12,137 nt of DNA from Nanobdellati archaeon (GTDB lineage: Archaea > EX4484-52 > GLR71), in contig JAHYJR010000010.1 of the NCBI GenBank assembly GCA_019429005.1, positions 1 through 12,137 of the forward strand, written 5' to 3'. The notes beneath the pieces were generated by a model that made no database searches, was not told the origin of the DNA, and worked only from the letters and a program-made list of their open reading frames with translations. Below are positions 1-12,137 of the stretch, piece by piece. The position numbers and the translations under genes are program-made. Each line of letters opens with the position of its first letter. Positions within the stretch are counted from its first letter, which is position 1.

Positions 1-127
1 CAACATACAATAAAGATGCAAACATAGGCATAAACACAAGAAGCGGCGGGAATGTTTGGGACGACTCAAGATATTCAGCAACAACATACAATAAAGATGC
101 AAACATAGGCATAAACACAAGAAGCGG
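1..127 (+). repeat. 81-bp-period coding direct repeat (46 bp identical at 1-46 and 82-127)
   Basis: CAACATACAATAAAGATGCAAACATAGGCATAAACACAAGAAGCGG occurs at 1 and at 82; the period is 27 codons. Confidence 0.95.
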
Positions 128-170
128 TGGAACAGTATGGTGTGATGAAGATAACTGGTGTCACAGTTAG
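1..170 (+). CDS. 3' end of a repeat-containing hypothetical protein (partial, enters from the left edge)
   Basis: The frame starting at base 3 is open to TAG 168-170: TYNKDANIGINTRSGGNVWDDSRYSAT-TYNKDANIGINTRSGGTVWCDEDNWCHS*. It has a 27-aa (81-bp) repeat and shares the GGxVWxDxRY motif with the next gene. Not in the ORF track because the start lies outside the window. Confidence 0.8.
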   Translation, partial: TYNKDANIGINTRSGGNVWDDSRYSATTYNKDANIGINTRSGGTVWCDEDNWCHS

Positions 171-830: not shown

Positions 831-905
831 GGGCCGGTGGTCTAGACTGGTTATGACATCGCCTCGACGTGGCGAGGATCGCCGGTTCAAATCCGGCTCG
901 GCCCA
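831..905 (+). tRNA. trnV: tRNA-Val (anticodon GAC), archaeal type, CCA not encoded
   Basis: Acceptor GGGCCGG/TCGGCCC with discriminator A905; D arm GTCTAGACTGGTTATGAC; anticodon stem TCGCC/GGCGA with loop TC-GAC-GT (866-868); T arm GCCGG-TTCAAAT-CCGGC. Confidence 0.93.
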
Positions 906-1501: not shown

Positions 1502-2199
1502 TTAATCCACATTAAGATACTTAGAATCAAAATTATTTTTTAAAGTATCAACTATATTTTTTCACAATTCTGGTGACATAATTAAATCATCATTTGTTTT
1601 AGGAAACGATACAAGTATTGTTGGAGCAATATAAATTCCAGCATCAGACATAGAATTTGCAATTATACCAGTAGAACTATATTCAGAAAACATATATCCT
1701 GCAAATCCAATCCCCCCCTTCATAAGTTGGAAAAAAATCCAAACTCGGATGAACTGAAGATATAACAAGAGAATCTATCAAAGGAAGACCTTATCGCTCT
1801 TTTAGACCATATTCTTAAAATGATACTTCAATTGCATCAGTACTTGCTTTAACTAAACCTCTTAAATGACGAACCTCATCATGATTAAGAGTATTAAGAC
1901 CATATTATTATAGCAGTATGAAATATACCGCCCTTATTGACATCATGATTAAGAGTATTAAGACCATATTGACCATCAACCCCTAAATGTCTTTTAGAAA
2001 TAATCGCACAACGTCCTAAATATAGACCCTATCTTGGATTTAATGCGACAGTAAAAAGAAAATTATCTCCAATTATATTTGAATCATCTTTATCAGGCCC
2101 TATAAAACCCGTACATATCGGACAAGAATTATCATAAATATCTTCAATAGCTCTAAGATTCTATGCAAGTAGATACTTAGAAAAATTAATTGGTTTCAT
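1502..2199 (-). pseudogene. Degraded HIT-family-like (histidine triad superfamily) gene
   Basis: Manual reconstruction from ATG 2199: MKPINFSKYLLA*NLRAIEDIYDNSCPICTG...FTVALNPR*GLYLGRCAIISKRHLGVDGQYGLNTLNHD[64-bp insertion]EVRHLRGLVKASTDAIEVSF*EYGLKER*GLPLIDSLVISSVHPSLDFFPTYEGG[+1 G]IGFAGYMFSEY...SPEL*KNIVDTLKNNFDSKYLNVD*. CPIC, LGRCxIIxKRH and LxxLxxDE resemble HIT proteins, but the triad region is degenerate (VHPSLDFFPTY). Five in-frame stops (2161, 2029, 1815, 1791, 1562) and a frameshift in the C7 run at 1712-1718; about 210 aa when repaired. Confidence 0.75.
1877..1970. repeat. Perfect 30-bp direct repeat pair separated by a 34-bp unique insert
   Basis: CATCATGATTAAGAGTATTAAGACCATATT at 1877-1906 and 1941-1970; insert ATTATAGCAGTATGAAATATACCGCCCTTATTGA at 1907-1940. 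Confidence 0.95.
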
Positions 2200-2230: not shown

Positions 2231-2569
2231 CTATTTAATAACAAGACTTTCCTTATACTTTTTTGCCATCTCAAATTCAGGCCCTAAAACAAGGCATTTT
2301 GTAGGACAAACTTCTTGACACCGTCCGCAAAAGATGCATTTTCCAAGATCAAGTGTCCAAATCTTTTCATCTCTAGATACAACAATTGCACCAGTCGGAC
2401 AAGCCCTCTGACACATACTGCAATAGATACATTTAGATTTGTTGTACTTATGTTTACCCCTAAAATCTTTTGACATTATTGGTTTAACATATGGATATTT
2501 CTGAGTAAAAGGTTTCTTAAAAAGATTTCCCACAACATCAAACAATAAATTAGCCATAATTAAAAACAC
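2231..2569 (-). CDS. mbhN: Group 4 [NiFe]-hydrogenase 2x[4Fe-4S] ferredoxin subunit (NuoI/EchF/MbhN-like)
   Basis: Two CxxCxxCxxxCP motifs (CIYCSMCQRACP, CIFCGRCQEVCP) and the N-terminal KKPFTQKYP...FRG pattern. GTG start. Symbol assigned from gene order. Confidence 0.9.
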   Translation of the reverse strand: MFLIMANLLFDVVGNLFKKPFTQKYPYVKPIMSKDFRGKHKYNKSKCIYCSMCQRACPTGAIVVSRDEKIWTLDLGKCIFCGRCQEVCPTKCLVLGPEFEMAKKYKESLVIK

Positions 2570-2570
2570 C

Positions 2571-3449
2571 TTAAAAAAATATTACCCTGAAAAGATCAAT
2601 AAATACAATAATCCCAGACATCCAATAGATGTTTACCGCCTGATTAATCTTTAAACGTGCAAAAATAACTCGGGAAATAAGAATTACAAACAATACAAAT
2701 ATACTTTTTAAAACAAAAATTAAAAGTGAAGAAGCACCACCCAAATAAAGCGATACCATTAAAGCTATAAGCACAAAGGTCTTAATCATATGAGCTAATT
2801 CAAGAATAGCTAACCTTGAACCCGTATATTCAGCAGTAGAACCTGCTACAATCTCTTGATGGCTCCCAGGTATATGAAATGGTGGCATCTCAATTTTAGC
2901 AAAAAAAGCAAGTAAAAAACCAAAACCAGCCAAAGGATATGAATTGATAAGCCAATTTGAATTATACACAATTGACGCAGAATTATTTACAACTGCAACT
3001 ACAACAATTGACATAGCAAGCACAATCTCATACGCAATCATTTGAACAATACCACGTATCGCACCGTGTATACCAAAAGGATTACCAGATGAAAAACCTG
3101 AAAGATAATATGCAAGAGAACTCAATACAAGCATATATAACACAAAGATAAGATCACCATTAAAAGATATCAAACCAGAAAAAACAATAGGGACTATAAG
3201 AGACACAATCAACACAGAAGATAAAGATATTACAGGCCAGATACTGAAACCATAACCTGACTGATGTGGGACAACACCCTCTTTTCCAAAAAGCTTGATT
3301 ATATCATAAACTGGTTGAATAATTGGAGGACCTACACGATTCTGCATAACTGCCGCAAGCTTTCTCAAAATACCAAAATAAAGGATACTTAAAACTAAAA
3401 CTAATAATATACCAGGATAAAACAGAATATTAAACATAGTCTCAATCAT
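2571..3449 (-). CDS. mbhM: Hydrogenase membrane subunit, complex I subunit 1 family (NuoH/EchB/MbhM-like)
   Basis: Motifs RKLAAVMQNRVGP, QPVYDIIKLFGKE, AYE, PPFH and EIVAGSTAEYTG; about 8 TM segments; GAGGT RBS. Confidence 0.93.
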   Translation of the reverse strand: MIETMFNILFYPGILLVLVLSILYFGILRKLAAVMQNRVGPPIIQPVYDIIKLFGKEGVVPHQSGYGFSIWPVISLSSVLIVSLIVPIVFSGLISFNGDLIFVLYMLVLSSLAYYLSGFSSGNPFGIHGAIRGIVQMIAYEIVLAMSIVVVAVVNNSASIVYNSNWLINSYPLAGFGFLLAFFAKIEMPPFHIPGSHQEIVAGSTAEYTGSRLAILELAHMIKTFVLIALMVSLYLGGASSLLIFVLKSIFVLFVILISRVIFARLKINQAVNIYWMSGIIVFIDLFRVIFF

Positions 3450-3460
3450 TCAAATTACCT

Positions 3461-4657
3461 CTAATTATATTTTTTATCAGCAATAGATCTTAAATTACTT
3501 GCATCAAGAATTTCATTTCCTGTTTGTTTTAATATAGTAACTCTATCTGTACAAGCAAAACAAGGATCAAGTGCACCTACAACAATAACAGGAACATCTG
3601 CTAAATCATGACCTATAAGCATAGTCTTGACAGATAAAAGATTAGCATAAGTAGGTGTTCGGATTTTCACACGTGCGGGTTTATTTGTACCATCAGATTT
3701 AACATAATATATCAGTTCTCCTCTTGGAGCTTCAACACGAGTTACAACCTCACCTGAAGGAACAATCAACGGCAATTTAATGTATATATCCCCTTTAGGT
3801 ATATGTTTAACACAATGTTTTACAATATCAGATGACACTATAAGTTCTTTTGCACGTACTACAACTTTTGAAAACACATCACCTTTAGTTTCAGTTATAA
3901 CATCAAATCGAATATATTTATAAGCCTCATATCCAGTATCACGCACATCATATTTTATTCCTGATGCTCTTGCTACAGGACCTACTGCAGAATATTTCTT
4001 TGCATCTTCTTTGCTTAATATACCAATATCTTTAGTCCTTAAAATAACAATATTATCTTTTGACACAATATCAATATAATGAATAACTTGTTTTTTTATG
4101 ATATCCATTGTCTTTGATATTTCGGAAAGTATTTTTGGATCCAAATCACGCCGTACACCACCGATTTTATTCATTGCATAATTGACACGATTTCCAGATA
4201 TTTTTTCAAGAAGATCCATTACATGTTCCCTATCACGCCAAACAAGTTGAAAAAGCGTATCAAGACCAATCTCATAACCAACAACACCAAGCCATAACAT
4301 ATGAGAATGAATCCTCTCTAACTCTGCAATAATTGTCCGAATATATTTAGCACGCATAGGAATCTCAGCACCATGTAACAATTCAATCGCACCACAATAT
4401 GCTATAGTGTGATGAGAACTGCAGATACCACAAATTCGCTCTGTAAGAAATACACTTTGAACATAATCTTTTTTCTCTAATGCTGCTTCAATCCCACGAT
4501 GAAGATAACCAACATTTATATCCGCATCTATTATTGTCTCACCATCAAGCCTAATATTAAAATATTCAGGCTCAAGAAGTGCAGGATGTTGTGGACCTAT
4601 TGGAATTGAATTTGATATATCTGAATTCACATTACATTTAGGTATCTTATCATCCAT
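3461..4657 (-). CDS. mbhL: Group 4 [NiFe]-hydrogenase large catalytic subunit (MbhL/EchE/HycE-like)
   Basis: GPQHP, GYLHRGIE, L1 motif ERICGICSSHH, AELERIHSH, EAPRGE and L2 motif DPCFACTDR followed by a C-terminal extension. All four Ni-binding Cys are present. Confidence 0.95.
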   Translation of the reverse strand: MDDKIPKCNVNSDISNSIPIGPQHPALLEPEYFNIRLDGETIIDADINVGYLHRGIEAALEKKDYVQSVFLTERICGICSSHHTIAYCGAIELLHGAEIPMRAKYIRTIIAELERIHSHMLWLGVVGYEIGLDTLFQLVWRDREHVMDLLEKISGNRVNYAMNKIGGVRRDLDPKILSEISKTMDIIKKQVIHYIDIVSKDNIVILRTKDIGILSKEDAKKYSAVGPVARASGIKYDVRDTGYEAYKYIRFDVITETKGDVFSKVVVRAKELIVSSDIVKHCVKHIPKGDIYIKLPLIVPSGEVVTRVEAPRGELIYYVKSDGTNKPARVKIRTPTYANLLSVKTMLIGHDLADVPVIVVGALDPCFACTDRVTILKQTGNEILDASNLRSIADKKYN

Positions 4658-4661
4658 AATA

Positions 4662-5042
4662 TCACTTCCTTAATGGTGTCTTTGGTGAATCGTGAGCAAG
4701 AAACAAATTTTCAGGTTCATCATTACCAACAATTTTCACACCAAGCATCTCTGACAATTCTCGCTCATACAATTTTGCACCTGGATACATCCCAATTATA
4801 GTATTTATTTTAGGATTATCACGCACAATCTCAATTTTTAAATTAATTGGAATATTATCCCAAATAAAAGTATATATTACTTCAATTACTTCCCCCGTAT
4901 CACAACCAGTAATATTTGAAATCCTATAGATTCCCAATTTCATTAATACGCTAAGAGCCTCTTCAAGATCTTTAACTAAAATATAATAACCGCTATTATC
5001 TTGCTTATACAAATTTCCCAATTCTTTTAACACAGCTTTCAT
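4662..5042 (-). CDS. mbhK: Hydrogenase NuoC-like subunit (MbhK/EchD-like)
   Basis: ITGCD, YPGAKLYERELSEMLGV and terminal PLRK motifs of the complex I 30-kDa family. Confidence 0.9.
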   Translation of the reverse strand: MKAVLKELGNLYKQDNSGYYILVKDLEEALSVLMKLGIYRISNITGCDTGEVIEVIYTFIWDNIPINLKIEIVRDNPKINTIIGMYPGAKLYERELSEMLGVKIVGNDEPENLFLAHDSPKTPLRK

Positions 5043-5078
5043 AAGTTATCACTTTTATTATAAAATATTATCAATCAA

Positions 5079-5531
5079 TTAATTAGTCTCAAGAAGTTCA
5101 ATCGCTTTAATAATCCCATCCATTATAGCCTCAGGTTTAGGCGGACAGCCAGGAACATAAATATCAACAGGTATAATTTTATCAACAGGCCCTACAGAAT
5201 TATATGCATCATGAAATATACCTTTTGAAATCGCACATGCACCTATTGCAACAACAACTTTGGGTTTTGACATCTGATGATATATAAGATCGACCACATC
5301 CTTATTCTTTGCAGTAACTGTACCTGCTATTGCAAATACATCTGAATGCCTAGGATTGCCTTTCTCTTGCATTCCAAAACGCTCAACATCATACCTCGGA
5401 CTAAGGCACGCAAAAGTCTCAATACTACAACCATTACATCCACCACACTCGTAATGTAAGACCCAAGGCGATTTCTTTCTTGCAATGTTTAATATCTTAT
5501 CTTTAATTCTAAAAAGAGCAGTCTTTATCAT
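5079..5531 (-). CDS. mbhJ: Group 4 [NiFe]-hydrogenase small subunit (NuoB/EchC/MbhJ-like)
   Basis: CNGCSIE, RYDVERFG, NPRHSD, GACAISKG and YVPGCPPKPE motifs. Confidence 0.95.
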   Translation of the reverse strand: MIKTALFRIKDKILNIARKKSPWVLHYECGGCNGCSIETFACLSPRYDVERFGMQEKGNPRHSDVFAIAGTVTAKNKDVVDLIYHQMSKPKVVVAIGACAISKGIFHDAYNSVGPVDKIIPVDIYVPGCPPKPEAIMDGIIKAIELLETN

Positions 5532-5642: not shown

Positions 5643-7490
5643 TCACTCAACAATCTCAAACCCATATTTCAAGATCAGATTAAAATCTTTTGTATTAGGC
5701 TTATACTTTGCAAACTTAACAAGATCACATGTTGAGAAACATTTACGTACAACGCTTAATTTTTCAGGCATCAGAGATTTAACAACCTTCAAGGCTTCAG
5801 TACTTGTGATATGCGTTTCAACCTTATCTATTGTATCACTCTCACTCAAGATATAAAATCTAACAGCTTTTGATACCATGATATATGCCTGTTTCTTATC
5901 ACCTTTATCATACATTTTTTCAGCATTCTTAAGCATCTTAATTGCTTCTTTAGAAGGATTAATTGGCACTGAAAAGAATGATTTTTCTAAAGAACCACTG
6001 ACCCGCTTAGATAAATGGTAATAATACAATATCAAAGATAAAACAAATAAGAACAAAATATATTTATAATAAGAATTTTCAAGACCTTTTACTTTTAGAT
6101 TATCAACTTCAACAGAATTTTCAGAAAAATCAGCTGTACCTGTTATATTCGCATAAGACATTGTACCGTTTTCCTCTTTAAAATATTCAACATTAAATTT
6201 TGTAGAATTTGATTTTATAGGTTCAGCATTAAGATCACTTCGCGTATAATTAAGATTTTTAAGCATCGCATCCTTCTTCAAAAAATCATCATCACTTTCT
6301 AAAGCTGAAGATATATCAGACAGATCCTTATCAGACAATTTAGCTAAATCTTTAGGATCAAAATCATCCATTTTTCCAGTAATATTTGCCGTCTCTCCAT
6401 TTGGACCTTCATACTCATATTTGAAATCAGACATATTATCCTTATCCAAACCATCAAACTCTTTATATTTCAAAGAATAACCATCCTCTTTAAGACTTTC
6501 ATCAAGCTCCTTAAATTCATCTGTATTTTCTAACGCCTCAGAAAGTTCTTTTTCATCTTCAGGACTCATCTTTTTCAAATCATTTACAGAACCATCTTCA
6601 ATATTACCTTTAATGCTCGCTTTACTACCATCTGGCTTCTTATAATCATAACTAAACTCACTATCATTTCCAGAAGTTGGTTCAATATTTTTTTCATCCA
6701 ATAAATAGCCTTTATCTTCAAGAGATTCTTGCATATCTTGGAAATCCTTATCCTCTGACAAAGCCTTATCAAGAGACTCCATTCTTTCCTTATCAATACT
6801 TGCCTTTTCATCAGAAAGCTGCTGTTTCACAGAACTCATATCTTGCTTAGATCGCTGTTTCACAGAATCAAGCTTATCTTGCATAGGATTAGGCTCAGGT
6901 GCTGGTGCTTGTTGTTCCTTTTTTTGTTCTTCAAGCATCTTATCTAAAGATTCTTTAAGCTTCTCAGTCATAGATTTCTCTTCTTCTTGTTGCTCTTCTT
7001 GCTGTTGCTGCTGTTGTTGTTGTTGCTGTTCTTCATCTTCGGTTTCATCAAACTCACACTGTACTATGACTTGTGTGGTTGTCTGTTGAATATTGCTTAC
7101 ACCCACAACTTCAATACTAATATCTTCAACACTTTCAACAATTTCAACATCTCCAGTCTCAAGATTGGTATATTTAACTTTTAATTTGCCGAGAGTATAA
7201 GTTCCAGGAGCATATGCTTGAAGAGACATATACTCAGCAACGCCAGACAATTCATTTATCTGTGCAGATTGACATTGGGTATCAATAATATTCCCACCAA
7301 TATCATTATAATCTTTAACCATAAATGAAAGAGACTGATTAAACGGATTATTAATTTTCAGAAAAATATTAACCGTTTCGCCAACATTCACAACTGTATT
7401 ATCCACAGCTTTTTCAATAGATAAAGACTCAGCATACACAGATGTTCCAAAAAGCATAAGTATCATAAAAACATAAAACCATCGTCTCAT
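5643..7490 (-). CDS. Large single-pass membrane protein of the Bat/MoxR operon (BatD-like Ig domain, polyQ/coiled linker, three ~77-aa repeats, TM, cytoplasmic DLVKFAK domain)
   Basis: Signal peptide (VYA|E); beta-rich N-domain (VNVGETVNIFLKINNP, PGTYTLG); Q10 tract; several NxS/T sequons; TM YILFLFVLSLILYYY; C-terminal TSTEAL...CDLVKFAKY pattern recalled from Bat-operon proteins. ATGA overlap with batA. Confidence 0.8.
   Translation of the reverse strand: MRRWFYVFMILMLFGTSVYAESLSIEKAVDNTVVNVGETVNIFLKINNPFNQSLSFMVKDYNDIGGNIIDTQCQSAQINELSGVAEYMSLQAYAPGTYTLGKLKVKYTNLETGDVEIVESVEDISIEVVGVSNIQQTTTQVIVQCEFDETEDEEQQQQQQQQQQEEQQEEEKSMTEKLKESLDKMLEEQKKEQQAPAPEPNPMQDKLDSVKQRSKQDMSSVKQQLSDEKASIDKERMESLDKALSEDKDFQDMQESLEDKGYLLDEKNIEPTSGNDSEFSYDYKKPDGSKASIKGNIEDGSVNDLKKMSPEDEKELSEALENTDEFKELDESLKEDGYSLKYKEFDGLDKDNMSDFKYEYEGPNGETANITGKMDDFDPKDLAKLSDKDLSDISSALESDDDFLKKDAMLKNLNYTRSDLNAEPIKSNSTKFNVEYFKEENGTMSYANITGTADFSENSVEVDNLKVKGLENSYYKYILFLFVLSLILYYYHLSKRVSGSLEKSFFSVPINPSKEAIKMLKNAEKMYDKGDKKQAYIMVSKAVRFYILSESDTIDKVETHITSTEALKVVKSLMPEKLSVVRKCFSTCDLVKFAKYKPNTKDFNLILKYGFEIVE
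6999..7028 (-). repeat. CAG/CAA trinucleotide tract encoding Q10
   Basis: Ten consecutive mixed CAG/CAA codons within the 615-aa gene. Confidence 0.9.
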
Positions 7491-8434
7491 GATAACACCC
7501 GATACTTTACAGTCCTCAAATAAAACTCAGACAAAATAAAAATAAAAGACATAAACATAAACCACATTCTTGTACTTGTCTCATCATTCGTACGCTCAAT
7601 TTTTTCAGAAAGTGAACTGTAAATATCTTCAAGTGTATTGTCATCAATAGATTTGAAATATTCACCATTAGTCTCTTGTGCTATTAACTGAAGCGCCACC
7701 TCATCAAACTCAGCATACATAGGCCGTCCAAAGAAATCATATCCAAGTACAACCTGTCCATTCGAACCCATACCGATTGTAAATACTTGTATATCTTGAG
7801 AATTTGCAAACTCTATAGCCTCATTAATACTGATTACACCAGCATTATTAACACCATCACTTAATAATATAACAAACTTCTTTTTACTAGGGTTCGATGT
7901 TACCATATCAACTGAAAGTGCAAGACCATCCCCAATTGCTGTCATCCCTTGAGACACTTTGATATTCTTAAGACTTGCTAAAGTCCTATCTTTTGATGTT
8001 GTAAAGAATGATTGAGCTGTTGCACCATCTGAAAAAACAATAATTCCTACACGATCGTTAAGATTCAAATTTTGAACAAAAAGCTCAGCATTTCGTTTAG
8101 CAGCCTCAATCCTGTTAGGCGTATAATCTGTAGCAACCATACTCCCCGAAATATCAATTGCAAGAACAATATTTACACCTTCCTCACGATGAAGAAGAGC
8201 CACTTGCGGATCTGCTAATGCGAATATGACTGATGTGAACGCCAAGAATTTTAACAATAAAAGTATATTATTTCTAAACCAATTTTTATGTTTTGAAACT
8301 GTTGTCTTTATCAGGCGAATATCACTAAATTTTATAGCAGACAATCTATTTTTTTCTAAAGATAGATGGTATATATAATAGATTATTGGCAATAACACTA
8401 AAAATGAAAGCCAAAAAGGTTCTTCAAAATACAT
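7487..8434 (-). CDS. batA: BatA-type von Willebrand factor A domain membrane protein
   Basis: N-terminal FEEPFWL double-TM BatA segment, ALADPQ, MIDAS DISGSM...T...LLSDG, VFTIGMG and a C-terminal TM. Confidence 0.9.
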   Translation of the reverse strand: MYFEEPFWLSFLVLLPIIYYIYHLSLEKNRLSAIKFSDIRLIKTTVSKHKNWFRNNILLLLKFLAFTSVIFALADPQVALLHREEGVNIVLAIDISGSMVATDYTPNRIEAAKRNAELFVQNLNLNDRVGIIVFSDGATAQSFFTTSKDRTLASLKNIKVSQGMTAIGDGLALSVDMVTSNPSKKKFVILLSDGVNNAGVISINEAIEFANSQDIQVFTIGMGSNGQVVLGYDFFGRPMYAEFDEVALQLIAQETNGEYFKSIDDNTLEDIYSSLSEKIERTNDETSTRMWFMFMSFIFILSEFYLRTVKYRVLS

Positions 8435-8440
8435 ATTATA

Positions 8441-9061
8441 TCAAGACCTCTCCTCTTTTTTATAAATGGATTCTGAAAATTTATCAATCAACCTAAATAG
8501 ATATTTATCTTTCAAAGAATCGATATAGACATTTATCCTTAGAGATAAATCAATATAAAAAGCCACCATTCGGTTCAAAAGACCCTTATAATAAATATGA
8601 TATAATACATTCACAGGTAATGCTGCAAAGATTATATTTATTATAGATACATCTTTATTCGAATAACTAAAAAAAGATAAAAAATATAGGAAAATAAATA
8701 CCTGCTTCAATACATAATTTTTCAAAATAGTTTCTTTTTTCATAAAAAGTCCAGAAAATGCAGACATTAATATATACAATATAATCAATAACAGAAAATA
8801 ATTAACAAACAAATCTGATAACGGTAAAAGATCCAGCTTTAGATAACTTATGTATTTTAAAGGTAAAATTGTCAACAATGATAATACAATCACAAGTGAT
8901 GCAATAAACAGGCCTTTAATAAAAGTAATAATTTCAACAGATAATTTTCGACCAACTTTAATAGAATAAAAAAATATCAAAACTATAGACAGTACTAAAG
9001 ATAAGACAATCATAAAATAGGGTATTTGAGATAATACAGATGTCATAAATTTAACACACAT
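8441..9061 (-). CDS. Hypothetical multi-pass membrane protein (about 5 TM); true start may be Met at 9046
   Basis: Hydrophobic segments throughout; tightly packed between the DUF58 gene and batA in the same orientation. Confidence 0.7.
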   Translation of the reverse strand: MCVKFMTSVLSQIPYFMIVLSLVLSIVLIFFYSIKVGRKLSVEIITFIKGLFIASLVIVLSLLTILPLKYISYLKLDLLPLSDLFVNYFLLLIILYILMSAFSGLFMKKETILKNYVLKQVFIFLYFLSFFSYSNKDVSIINIIFAALPVNVLYHIYYKGLLNRMVAFYIDLSLRINVYIDSLKDKYLFRLIDKFSESIYKKEERS

Positions 9062-9953
9062 TTCTTATATTTTTTGGAATCCTACTTTTAAAAAATCCTG
9101 AAAGAGACTTAAACCATTCCGAACCATTTTGTATACCTATATAATCTGAACCGGATAATATTATCTTCTTTCTTATATATTCAAGATCCAATTCAACAAG
9201 CCTATGGTAATCCTCATAAAACTCTGGATTTGATGTATCAACAAGAACCTGTTCACCCGTTTCCATATCTTCAAGATATATCATACCTACATCGGGTATA
9301 TCTATCTCACGCTCATCCATAACACGAATAGATATAAGATCATGTTTCCTTGAAACAATCTTAAGATACTTATCCAGATTTTGTGGAAGATTCATAAAGT
9401 CAGATATAACAAAGATAATACTTTTTCTTTTTGTGATATTATTTATATATTTTAATGCTGATGACATATCAGTTGTTTTATTTACAGAATTAAAAGACAA
9501 AATATCTTTAATCATATGTAACACATTCTTACGCCCACGCTTTGGTGGAATTATATGTTCAACCTTATCTGAAAATAAAATAAGTCCAACACGATCATTA
9601 TTATGCACTGCTGCAAAAGCAAGTGTCGCTGAAATTTCTGCTGCAATCTCCCTTTTAATATTCTTTTTTGATCCAAAATCAAAAGACCCCGAAACATCAA
9701 GTAAAATATAAACTGTCATATCACGCTCTTCAACAAATTCGCGAACATAGGGTTTATTCATTCTTGCAGTAACATTCCAATCAATATTCCTTATATCATC
9801 TCCAAAACTATATTTACGATAGTCTGAAAATTCAATACCCGAACCTTTAAACTTAGAACGATAAAAACCCTGAATAAAACCTTCTGAATAAGACCGTGTC
9901 TTAAGTTCAATTTTACGTACAGTTTTAATAATATCTTTTTCAATAAGAGTCAA
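9051..9953 (-). CDS. DUF58 family protein (MoxR-associated, vWA-like)
   Basis: GSGIEFSDYRKYSFGDDIRNIDWNVTAR, REFVEERD, DVSGS, DRVGL and ISDF motifs; TTG start preceded by GGTG RBS. Confidence 0.93.
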   Translation of the reverse strand: MTLIEKDIIKTVRKIELKTRSYSEGFIQGFYRSKFKGSGIEFSDYRKYSFGDDIRNIDWNVTARMNKPYVREFVEERDMTVYILLDVSGSFDFGSKKNIKREIAAEISATLAFAAVHNNDRVGLILFSDKVEHIIPPKRGRKNVLHMIKDILSFNSVNKTTDMSSALKYINNITKRKSIIFVISDFMNLPQNLDKYLKIVSRKHDLISIRVMDEREIDIPDVGMIYLEDMETGEQVLVDTSNPEFYEDYHRLVELDLEYIRKKIILSGSDYIGIQNGSEWFKSLSGFFKSRIPKNIRNVC

Positions 9954-9965
9954 AATAACACCAAT

Positions 9966-10952
9966 CTATGGAACATTTACTACATTCAATACCTTATTTA
10001 TAATATAACTAGAATCAATATTTTCTGCATCAGCTTCATATGTCATCAAAACACGATGCCTTAATACATCAGGAGCAATCCCCTTTATATCTTCAGGTAT
10101 AACATAAGCACGACCATTCATAAGAGCATGAGCTTTTGCACCTAAAGTTAACCAAATAGACGCACGCGGTGATGCACCATATGCAACAAAATTAGTGAAA
10201 TCAAGACCATACACATCTGGATTTCGTGTAGCATTAACAATATCTGTCACATAATTTATGACTTTCTCATCTGCATAAATACTATGACAAAATTTTTGCA
10301 TCTCAATTATCTTAACAATATCAATAACTTTTTTTGCAGAAGGCATAACACCCGAAGTCATCCTCCTCACAATCTCTTTCTCATCATTTAAAGATGCATA
10401 TTTAACAGGAATCTTAAACATAAACCGATCAAGCTGAGCTTCTGGTAAAGGATACGTACCTTCTGTCTCTATAGGATTCTGTGTTGCAAGAACAAGAAAT
10501 GGTTTTGGAAGTGGAAATGTTTCACCAGCAATTGTTACCTGACACTCTTGCATTGCTTCAAGCAAAGCGGATTGTACTTTAGGTGGTGCACGATTTATTT
10601 CGTCTGCAAGAATAAAATTCGAAAACACGGGACCTTTCTTTGTCGAAAATGTTGCAGTTTTCTGATTATATATTTTTGTTCCAAGTATATCAGATGGAAG
10701 TAAATCTGGTGTAAACTGTAATCGTCTAAAATCAGCATGTGTTGTGTCAGACAATGTTTTAATCATAAGAGTTTTAGCAAGACCTGGAAGACCTTCAAGA
10801 AGCGTATGTCCACCTGCAATAAGAGAAATCATTAATTTATCCAAAACATCATCATTACCTACAACAACCTTTTTAACCTCACCAATAACCTTATCAGTTA
10901 ATGATGCATATTCCTCTGCCTTTAAATTAAGAGCTTTCATATCTTGTGCCAT
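9966..10952 (-). CDS. moxR: MoxR-family AAA+ ATPase
   Basis: Walker A variant GLPGLAKT, RLQFTPDLLPSDILG, Walker B ILADEINRAPPKVQSALLEAMQE, ATQNPIETEGTYPLPEAQLDRF and GASPRA; GGTGA RBS. Confidence 0.97.
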   Translation of the reverse strand: MAQDMKALNLKAEEYASLTDKVIGEVKKVVVGNDDVLDKLMISLIAGGHTLLEGLPGLAKTLMIKTLSDTTHADFRRLQFTPDLLPSDILGTKIYNQKTATFSTKKGPVFSNFILADEINRAPPKVQSALLEAMQECQVTIAGETFPLPKPFLVLATQNPIETEGTYPLPEAQLDRFMFKIPVKYASLNDEKEIVRRMTSGVMPSAKKVIDIVKIIEMQKFCHSIYADEKVINYVTDIVNATRNPDVYGLDFTNFVAYGASPRASIWLTLGAKAHALMNGRAYVIPEDIKGIAPDVLRHRVLMTYEADAENIDSSYIINKVLNVVNVP

Positions 10953-11938: not shown

Positions 11939-11995
11939 AAGTAACAACCATTTGTTTTGATATTAATAAACCCTACAATTATAAAATCCTAAACT

Positions 11996-12137
11996 ATAAT
12001 ATCACAAAAGATAATATCACAAAAGATAATATCACAAAAGATAATATCACAAAAGATAATATCACAAAAGATAATATCACAAAAGATAATATCACAAAAG
12101 ATAATATCACAAAAGATAATATCACAAAAGATAATAT
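11996..12137. repeat. Perfect 15-bp tandem repeat (ATAATATCACAAAAG)n, at least 9.4 copies, truncated by the window edge
   Basis: The unit repeats without mismatch from 11996 to the last base. Confidence 0.97.

What the first reader, a model, noticed from the sequence alone, without database searches (positions are those of the whole stretch)
1877..1970. Candidate natural ectopic CRISPR spacer integration ('neo-CRISPR') fossilised inside a gene
Seen: two identical 30-bp copies flank a 34-bp unique insert. Deleting exactly one repeat plus the insert (64 bp) restores the HIT-like reading frame (...LNTLNHD|EVRHLRG...), so the 30-mer is native coding sequence that was duplicated when the 34 bp arrived. 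Established: Cas1-Cas2 integration duplicates a repeat-length target around a spacer-length fragment; 30-bp repeats with ~34-39-bp spacers are typical of type I-B-like systems; off-target integration has been shown experimentally in E. coli; IS target duplications are usually much shorter. Inference: this may be an off-target spacer-acquisition scar that helped inactivate a gene. The target contains ATTAAGAC, resembling the 3' end of many CRISPR repeats. Caveats: no cas gene is in the window, and a TATTGAC microhomology (1935-1941, 1967-1973) allows a template-switch or repair origin.
Basis: partly seen in the sequence, partly recalled or inferred. Interest (0 to 1): 0.8.

Follow-up and report, generated by a model that had tools for sequence, protein, structure and literature searches.

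The report
Spacer-like insertion scars across an archaeal genome
The 30+34+30 bp structure is a real insertion scar with the dimensions of CRISPR spacer integration, and it is one of at least thirteen such scars in a small archaeal genome in which no cas gene can be found.

Summary
Exact 30-bp copies lie at 1877-1906 and 1941-1970 around a unique 34-bp insert.

It is not a one-off. The 1.08-Mb archaeal genome holds 11 clean two-copy scars of the same geometry: repeat 29-32 bp, insert 34-37 bp, period 64-67. There are also 2 amplified, 1 atypical and 1 doubtful locus.

- **All inserts differ.** One is an exact 34-bp copy of a chromosomal site 188 kb away, and the identity ends at the insert borders.
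- **Empty sites are shown twice.** Five intact homologues of the broken gene lack the segment. A homologue of another gene lacks exactly 22 residues.
- **The junctions carry a motif.** 11 of 24 junctions carry CT| (P about 4e-9), like the CCCT|G leader-repeat junction of Pyrococcus furiosus.
- **One site is a hot spot.** A sister genus has 3 scars, one at the same orthologous site with an unrelated insert.
- **Relatives match in size.** Relatives in the order have type I-B arrays with 30-bp repeats and 35-39-bp spacers.
- **No enzyme is found.** Cas1, Cas2 and arrays are absent from this genome, and no Cas1 scores above cut-off in its family.

Best reading: Cas1-Cas2-type ectopic integration by an enzyme of unknown source. 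The insertion probably landed in an already dead gene. Reads could not be checked.

The parts
1874..1876 (+). CCT directly 5' of the left nick site (junction motif)
   Evidence: for the sequence. CT| at 11 of 24 junctions of 12 own loci, against a genome CT frequency of 0.048 (binomial 4e-9).
1877..1906 (.). Copy 1 of the duplicated 30-bp native target (R1)
   Evidence: (D10) and 14: 30 of 30 identical to copy 2. On the minus strand it encodes YGLNTLNHD of the host gene.
1907..1940 (.). 34-bp spacer-like insert, source unknown
   Evidence: No 14-mer is shared with the rest of the assembly. No exact match in viral contigs. No match with up to 3 mismatches in 41 relatives. No blastn match in phages or plasmids at E<=1. 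No counterpart in 5 intact homologues.
1941..1970 (.). Copy 2 of the duplicated 30-bp native target (R2)
   Evidence: It continues in frame from the N-terminal part of the host gene.
1505..2199 (-). Decayed gene (pseudogene) of an unnamed family of about 175-203 aa; carries the scar, 5 in-frame stops and one frameshift near 1715
   Evidence: Homologues P0002, P0003, P0008-P0010 came and are aligned. No Pfam family for the pieces or for the homologues.

Best explanation
The structure is the product of one full-site integration by a Cas1-Cas2-type (type I-B-like) spacer integrase at a non-CRISPR site.

Inferred mechanism: the enzyme nicked the two strands about 30 bp apart and joined a 34-bp prespacer to both nicks. 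The left nick lies directly after CCT at 1874-1876. Gap repair then copied the 30-bp native sequence on both sides, giving R-S-R.

The same process has acted at least 13 times in this genome and 3 times in a sister genus. It prefers CT| junctions and has at least one hot spot. Surviving scars lie in intergenic DNA, at gene ends, in frame, or in dead genes. In the window it landed in a gene that was most likely already inactive.

Shown: the geometry, the multiplicity, the empty sites, one copied source, the junction motif and the hot spot.

Inferred: the identity of the enzyme. Its source is open. It could be a resident cas locus missing from the assembly, a locus lost very recently, or an enzyme supplied by a mobile element or a partner cell.
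For: 1. **Geometry.** Eleven clean scars have R 29-32 bp, S 34-37 bp and period 64-67. Type I-B arrays of relatives G010 and G022 in the same order have 30-bp repeats and 35-39-bp spacers. The G010 locus types as I-B, with Cas1b at 451 bits against a cut-off of 304, plus Cas2, Cas4, Cas3, Cas5b, Cas7 and Cas6.
2. **Inserts.** All inserts are unrelated to each other. The insert at C11:225981-226014 is an exact 34-bp copy of C11:38047-38080 on the other strand, and identity stops exactly at the insert borders.
3. **Empty sites.** Five homologues have no gap at the duplicated YGLNTLNHD. P0014 lacks exactly the 22 residues of one R plus S at C10:109023. G016 has the hot-spot gene without a duplication.
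4. **Junction motif.** CT| occurs at 11 of 24 junctions (P 4e-9, or 6e-8 after x16). Of the 12 CT| junctions (11 own plus 1 in G002), 6 have C at -3 and 8 have G or C at +1. P. furiosus Cas1-Cas2 needs CCCT|GTTA at its leader-repeat junction and makes paired off-target nicks 30-31 bp apart (passages of PMC6698737).
5. **Length jitter.** R of 29-32 bp matches the aberrant duplications of 29, 31, 32 or 33 bp in type I-B Haloarcula hispanica (abstract of PMC4872114).
6. **Hot spot.** G000 C4:1354 and G002 L114:5498 have the same borders at the start codon of a 2-thiouracil desulfurase gene. R1 equals R2 within each genome, but R differs at 3 nt between genomes, and the inserts are unrelated.
7. 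**Controls.** No such pair occurs in 597 kb of unrelated contigs.
Against: - No Cas1 was found with PF01867 or TIGR00287, and no Cas2. tblastn with a relative's whole cas operon gave only a weak helicase hit. The assembly is 93.55% complete.
- There is no array of three or more repeats with differing spacers.
- No Cas1 above cut-off occurs in the 10 genomes of the family. G002 also has scars and lacks cas.
- The one fully scanned Cas1-positive relative, G010 (898,622 bp), has no scar.
- Only 1 of 13 inserts has an identified source, and no PAM can be derived.
- The targets do not resemble the relatives' repeats at a consistent offset.
- Three of 12 own sites lack CT|.
- Read support is untested.
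Confidence: 0.7

Rival explanations
1. An unknown integrase unrelated to Cas1, encoded by this archaeal family or by one of its mobile elements, makes about 30-bp staggered cuts and inserts fragments of about 35 bp.
For: No cas1 or cas2 is found in either scar-bearing genome, and no Cas1 above cut-off in the 10 family genomes. The Cas1-positive relative G010 has no scars. The scars must postdate the split of the two genera, because R1 equals R2 within each genome while R differs between genomes.
Against: No known enzyme other than Cas1-Cas2 gives this pair of dimensions (my own knowledge). The dimensions equal those of type I-B arrays in the same order. The junction motif matches an archaeal Cas1-Cas2 junction. 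No candidate gene was identified.
Confidence: 0.13
2. A replication or repair accident produced the structure: template switching or microhomology-mediated repair duplicated 30 bp and captured filler DNA.
For: A 7-nt microhomology, TATTGAC, links the insert/R2 junction and the R2/flank junction in the window.
Against: Ten of the 11 other loci have only 2-5 nt of such homology. R and S lengths are tightly constrained across loci. The one traced insert comes from 188 kb away on the other strand, with exact borders. A specific CT| junction motif and a hot spot used twice point to an enzyme.
Confidence: 0.05
3. The structure is an assembly or sequencing artefact, for example a de Bruijn graph loop at a k-1 overlap.
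For: The genome is a scaffolded draft of 15 contigs with N runs. Reads could not be inspected. A 30-bp repeat equals k-1 for k=31.
Against: - Repeat lengths vary from 29 to 32, and three or four loci have mismatches between the copies.
- Two independent assemblies carry a scar at the same orthologous site with different inserts.
- One insert is a real chromosomal 34-mer.
- A junction motif exists.
- No such pair occurs in 597 kb of other assembled contigs or in 899 kb of G010.
Confidence: 0.03
4. The R-S-R units are functional mini-CRISPR arrays or regulatory elements kept by selection, not accidental scars.
For: The hot-spot unit sits at a gene start in two genera. Two loci are amplified to (R-S)2-R and (R-S)3-R.
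Against: Every locus has a different repeat, which is native coding or intergenic sequence, so no single processing enzyme could recognise them. Several units break reading frames. The amplified loci repeat the same insert, as slippage would.
Confidence: 0.04

Closest known systems
Off-target ('neo-CRISPR') spacer integration by over-expressed type I-E Cas1-Cas2 in Escherichia coli (Nivala, Shipman and Church 2018). The paper itself was not held. I saw how it is cited in 10.1101/148544, PMC6698737 and PMC7054753.
   Same: A spacer-sized fragment sits between two copies of a repeat-length native sequence, away from any array. Such sites are proposed as seeds of new arrays.
   Different: - That was an engineered bacterial system with resident cas genes. 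Natural cases were called circumstantial (passage).
- Here the organism is a natural archaeon with at least 13 scars, type I-B-like dimensions (30 and 34-37), a hot spot shared by two genera, and no detectable cas gene.
Non-CRISPR integration by Pyrococcus furiosus Cas1-Cas2 in vitro (PMC6698737; passages read)
   Same: Paired nicks on opposite strands 30-31 bp apart at non-CRISPR sites; 30-bp repeats with 37-bp spacers; a critical CCCT|G junction and a G or C preference at the integration base. The scars here show CCT| and G or C at +1.
   Different: That work was done in vitro on plasmids with a known enzyme. Here the events are fixed genomic ones and the enzyme is not identified. A mid-repeat A-rich motif was not looked for here.
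Repeat-length ruler of the type I-B system of Haloarcula hispanica (PMC4872114; abstract read)
   Same: A 30-bp duplication that becomes 29, 31, 32 or 33 bp when the anchoring motifs are displaced. This is the jitter seen here (29-32 bp).
   Different: The AACCC and GTGGG motifs of that repeat are not present in the targets here (sequences; no formal motif search was made).
Orphan or isolated mini-arrays proposed to arise from off-target acquisition (Shmakov et al. 2020, not held). The idea is stated in the introduction of 10.64898/2026.04.27.721218.
   Same: Two-repeat, one-spacer units located away from cas genes.
   Different: Those arrays usually carry repeats resembling a known repeat family (my recollection). 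Here each unit has its own native sequence as the repeat.

Membership tests
Product of Cas1-Cas2 spacer integration at an ectopic site | Direct duplication of a repeat-length target on both sides of the insert | tested here: met
   30 of 30 identical at 1877-1906 and 1941-1970. Eleven clean loci have R of 29-32 bp.
Product of Cas1-Cas2 spacer integration at an ectopic site | Insert of spacer length, different at every site | tested here: met
   Inserts are 34-37 bp and share no similarity with each other.
Product of Cas1-Cas2 spacer integration at an ectopic site | An empty (pre-integration) site can be shown | tested here: met
   Window gene: 5 homologues without a gap. C10:109023: the homologue lacks exactly 22 aa. 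Hot-spot gene in G016 has no duplication.
Product of Cas1-Cas2 spacer integration at an ectopic site | The insert is a copy of pre-existing DNA (a protospacer) with a PAM beside it | tested here: inconclusive
   One of 13 inserts has an exact 34-bp source. The window insert has none. With one protospacer no PAM can be derived.
Product of Cas1-Cas2 spacer integration at an ectopic site | Target preference resembling a leader-repeat junction | tested here: met
   CT| at 11 of 24 junctions, P 4e-9. Compare CCCT|GTTA in P. furiosus.
Product of Cas1-Cas2 spacer integration at an ectopic site | cas1 and cas2 present in the same genome | tested here: not met
   PF01867, TIGR00287 and PF09827 gave 0 matches in a 93.55% complete assembly. 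tblastn with a relative's cas operon found none.
Product of Cas1-Cas2 spacer integration at an ectopic site | Canonical arrays of compatible dimensions in the lineage | tested here: inconclusive
   None in this genome. Present in other families of the order: 30-bp repeats with 35-39-bp spacers, typed I-B. Cas1 above cut-off in 8 of 42 genomes of the order and in 0 of 10 in the family.
Functional CRISPR array | One repeat family shared by the units, differing spacers, a leader, and processing by Cas proteins | tested here: not met
   Each locus has its own repeat, made of native sequence. The two multi-copy loci repeat the same insert.
Transposable element with target-site duplication | Inserts share element sequence or terminal repeats | tested here: not met
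   Inserts are unrelated to each other.
   No Pfam family at E<=0.1 for the two pieces, and none at E<=0.01 for 5 intact homologues.

The most novel reading that the evidence does not exclude
A small-genome archaeal family with no adaptation genes of its own is repeatedly written into by a spacer integrase supplied from outside, either by a mobile element or by the partner or host cell. Ectopic spacer integration would then act as a recurrent mutational force and a source of proto-arrays in reduced genomes. The alternative is that the enzyme is a new integrase, not Cas1, with the same ruler.
Probability: 0.22. Interest if true: 0.92.

Novelty: new variant of a known kind. Interest (0 to 1): 0.8.

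Why it matters
Off-target spacer integration has been shown with over-expressed or purified Cas1-Cas2. Natural evidence was described as circumstantial in the one passage I read on this point.

This genome offers a natural series of such events, with four useful properties:
- empty sites,
- a traced source for one insert,
- a junction motif,
- a hot spot used independently in two genera.

That makes three questions directly testable:
- whether CRISPR arrays can arise de novo in nature;
- what an archaeal type I-B-like integrase recognises outside arrays;
- how much damage adaptation does to its own genome.

The absence of cas genes in both scar-bearing genomes raises a sharper question, namely whose enzyme did this. 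The simple scan used here (isolated repeat pairs at array-like spacing) could be run on any genome collection.

Tried and rejected
**Searches that found nothing**
- Sequencing runs: none was listed for window:1500-2400.
- Source of the inserts: five inserts (window, G002 hot spot, C10:113567, C13:103208, C10:109053) had 0 exact matches in viral contigs.
- The window insert with up to 3 mismatches matched 0 of 41 relatives. It gave no blastn hit at E<=1 in phages or plasmids.
- All 15 inserts were run against 2.33 Mb of fetched loci and against the genome. Only the one self-match appeared.
- DNA of the pseudogene region: no useful match in 40 relatives.
- Protein P0001: no hit in 41 relatives and none in the word-indexed search. 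Homologues came only from the full HMMER search.

**Ideas considered and rejected**
- Targets resemble the relatives' type I-B repeats: there is no consistent offset. The single 20 of 30 match, at the hot spot, is offset by about 10 nt.
- ATTGAA near the borders: 6 observed against 2.9 expected, so not enriched.
- Microhomology as a general feature: rejected.
- Three further long matches at period 64-65 are 13- or 16-bp microsatellites, not scars.
- A looser scan for degenerate older scars gave only 2-3 weak candidates, which were not followed.
- Empty-site tests by tblastn of script-made deletion versions against G002 and G010 found a homologue only for the hot-spot gene.

**Literature not seen**
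Nivala et al. 2018 and Shmakov et al. 2020 were not held. Supplements were not consulted.

Full report
**1. The observation**

Searches show exact 30-bp copies at 1877-1906 and 1941-1970 with a 34-bp insert at 1907-1940.

On the minus strand the region is a broken gene. Removing one copy plus the insert (64 bp) joins ...LNTLNHD to EVRHLRG... in one frame.

The insert shares no 14-mer with the rest of the assembly.

**2. The organism and the host gene**

The window is the start of contig C1 of a 1,078,986-bp draft. The draft has 15 contigs, about 30% GC and 93.55% estimated completeness. It is an archaeon: the archaeal SSU and LSU rRNA models win. The best hits of one of its membrane proteins are MAGs labelled Aenigmatarchaeota and Nanoarchaeota, at 45-46% identity. 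Its phylum holds only 42 species genomes of 0.5-2.2 Mb in the collection.

The broken gene spans 1505-2199 on the minus strand. It belongs to an unnamed family of about 175-203 residues. The family was found only by the exhaustive HMMER search (the earlier searches failed).

Neither its pieces nor five intact homologues match any Pfam family. 'HIT-like' is therefore not confirmed.

In alignment A1 the two halves of the gene overlap on YGLNTLNHD. All five homologues align to this as one stretch without a gap. Intact relatives thus lack both the insert and the second copy.

The gene also carries five in-frame stops and a frameshift near 1715.

**3. It is one of many**

I scanned the whole genome for repeat pairs.

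- Among 33 isolated pairs with spacing 25-300, 11 have spacing 64-67, against 0.48 expected (8.5e-13).
- Two more loci came from the exact-repeat list, giving 13 candidate loci in all.
- Eleven of these are clean: C1:1877, C13:103178, C4:1354, C11:225950, C4:23744, C10:109023, C11:11833, C15:10511, C14:1137, C7:28530 and C10:113537.
- In the clean set R is 29-32 bp, S is 34-37 bp and the period is 64-67.
- One locus is atypical (C10:61344, R 37, S 27). One is doubtful and lies inside a repetitive coding region (C13:19138).
- Two further loci have the unit amplified with the same insert: C11:189465 is (R-S)3-R with period 65, and C7:26561 is (R-S)2-R with period 67. I read these as later slippage.
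- Three or four loci have 1-2 mismatches between the copies.
- All inserts differ from each other.

Controls:

| Sequence scanned | Size | Scars found |
|---|---|---|
| Unrelated assembled contigs | 597 kb | 0 |
| G010 (Cas1-positive relative, all contigs) | 898,622 bp | 0 |
| G002 (another genus of the same family, all contigs) | 1,158,795 bp | 3 |

The relatives were scanned in pieces of up to 20 kb, so a scar lying across a cut could be missed.

**4. Evidence that these are insertions of pre-existing DNA**

- The insert at C11:225981-226014 is an exact 34-bp copy of C11:38047-38080 on the opposite strand. The source lies inside a surface-protein gene. Identity ends exactly at the insert borders.
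- The scar at C10:109023 is in frame in a 259-residue reading frame. A 61%-identical homologue, P0014, lacks exactly 22 residues. The local sequence reads DLVLPESIVA-HFHGMIIHFHHW-DLVLPESIVA.
- Twelve of the 13 inserts have no source in an assembly that is 93.55% complete. Most therefore probably come from DNA outside the chromosome. This is an inference.

**5. Signs of an enzyme**

- CT lies directly 5' of the nick at 11 of 24 junctions in 12 own loci, and 9 of the 12 loci have at least one. The genome frequency of CT is 0.048, giving P 4e-9, or 6e-8 after correcting for 16 dinucleotides.
- Among the 12 CT| junctions (11 own plus 1 in G002), position -3 is C in 6 and position +1 is G or C in 8. 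The motif was found after looking, so these P values are indicative only.
- The window scar has CCT at 1874-1876.

There is also a hot spot. The scar at C4:1354 and the G002 scar at L114:5498 occupy the same orthologous 29 bp. This stretch covers the start codon of a 2-thiouracil desulfurase gene (PF04463).

- The borders are identical in the two genomes.
- The two copies are identical within each genome but differ at 3 positions between genomes.
- The inserts (36 and 37 bp) are unrelated.
- Chance coincidence of position is about 4e-5.
- A more distant relative, G016, has the gene without the duplication.

It follows that the integrations postdate the split of the two genera, and that the activity existed in both lineages.

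**6. What it works like**

The dimensions equal those of type I-B arrays in the same order. G010 has a 30-bp repeat with 36-39-bp spacers next to cas6, cas7, cas5b, cas3, cas4, cas1b and cas2. G022 has a 30-bp repeat with 35-38-bp spacers.

P. furiosus Cas1-Cas2 has 30-bp repeats and 37-bp spacers. It makes paired off-target nicks 30-31 bp apart, depends on CCCT|GTTA at the junction, and prefers G, then C, at the integration base (passages).

In type I-B Haloarcula hispanica the duplication becomes 29, 31, 32 or 33 bp when the anchoring motifs are displaced (abstract).

I therefore read each scar as one full-site integration by an enzyme of this kind, followed by gap repair.

**7. What does not fit**

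- Cas1 (two models) and Cas2 are not found. tblastn with a complete type I-B operon gave only a weak generic helicase hit.
- The PF01930 hits lie in long nuclease-like frames and are not in a cas context.
- There is no real array.
- No family member has Cas1 above cut-off (0 of 10), against 8 of 32 in the other families.
- G002 has scars and also lacks cas.
- The enzyme is therefore inferred. Draft genomes often lose array-bearing or mobile contigs (my own knowledge), so absence is weak evidence. It is nevertheless consistent across two genomes.

**8. Timing in the window**

Five stops in 210 codons imply roughly 0.19 substitutions per site since constraint was lost. A duplication of that age should show about 11 differences between the two 30-mers, and none is seen. 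The estimate is rough and ignores gene conversion. It indicates that the insertion hit a gene that was already dead, rather than helping to kill it.

Across loci, the scars sit in intergenic DNA, at gene ends, in frame, or in broken genes. This is what selection would leave behind.

**9. Rivals**

- *Template switching* is disfavoured by the lack of microhomology elsewhere, by the distant source of one insert, and by the fixed sizes.
- *An assembly artefact* is disfavoured by the variable R, by mismatches between copies, by the shared site in two assemblies, by the motif and by the controls. Reads remain unchecked.
- *Functional mini-arrays* are disfavoured because every locus has its own repeat.
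- *A non-Cas integrase* cannot be excluded.

**10. Novelty**

The principle is known from experiment. Natural occurrence was called circumstantial in the passage I read. Off-target acquisition is listed as a proposed origin of orphan arrays.

My four literature searches on this theme listed no natural genome with a series of such scars. They also listed no case in a lineage without cas genes. The two key papers were not held, so I cannot say what they list.

Noticed in passing
G000 C11:189465-189720 and C7:26561-26750: Two loci where an R-S unit of the same geometry is tandemly amplified with an identical insert: (R-S)3-R with period 65, and (R-S)2-R with period 67. A CRISPR finder might call them arrays. 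I read them as slippage of single scars.
   Followed up: partly
G000 C4:240-711 (locus L025): A 472-bp element is single-copy in this genome but present in at least 5 copies (85-98% identical) in G002, while ordinary genes of the two genomes are about 66-75% identical. This suggests a small mobile element shared between genera. It lies about 640 bp from the hot-spot scar. Its 154-aa frame has no Pfam hit and the stretch has no Rfam hit.
   Followed up: partly
L245 (G002:C2:5567-5968): The G002 copy of the hot-spot gene (2-thiouracil desulfurase) has an in-frame TGA at codon 15, where this genome has TGG. It may be a pseudogene or a sequencing error.
   Followed up: no
window 11951-12137: A 15-bp tandem repeat (unit ATAATATCACAAAAG, at least 12 copies) runs up to the N gap that follows the window in contig C1.
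   Followed up: no
window 1-140, and G000 C4:153445-153733: An 81-bp repeat unit sits at the start of the window and also at the end of contig C4. The two contig ends probably belong to one repetitive, possibly surface-protein, gene.
   Followed up: no
window 2231-5531 and 5643-10952: A minus-strand cluster for a membrane-bound hydrogenase or complex-I-like module (ferredoxin, NuoH-like, 49-kDa, 30-kDa and 20-kDa subunits). It is followed by a BatD-like, BatA/VWA, DUF58 and MoxR ATPase operon.
   Followed up: no
window 831-905: tRNA gene on the plus strand (Rfam, 53.8 bits).
   Followed up: no
L183:17472 (G010:C10): An isolated repeat pair with period 75 (36 bp with 1 mismatch, 39-bp gap) in the Cas1-positive relative. 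Its geometry differs from the scars described here.
   Followed up: no
G000 C10:61344-61444: An atypical scar (R 37 bp, insert 27 bp, period 64) whose left flank ends in GGATTGAAG, which resembles the 3' end of type I-B repeats.
   Followed up: partly
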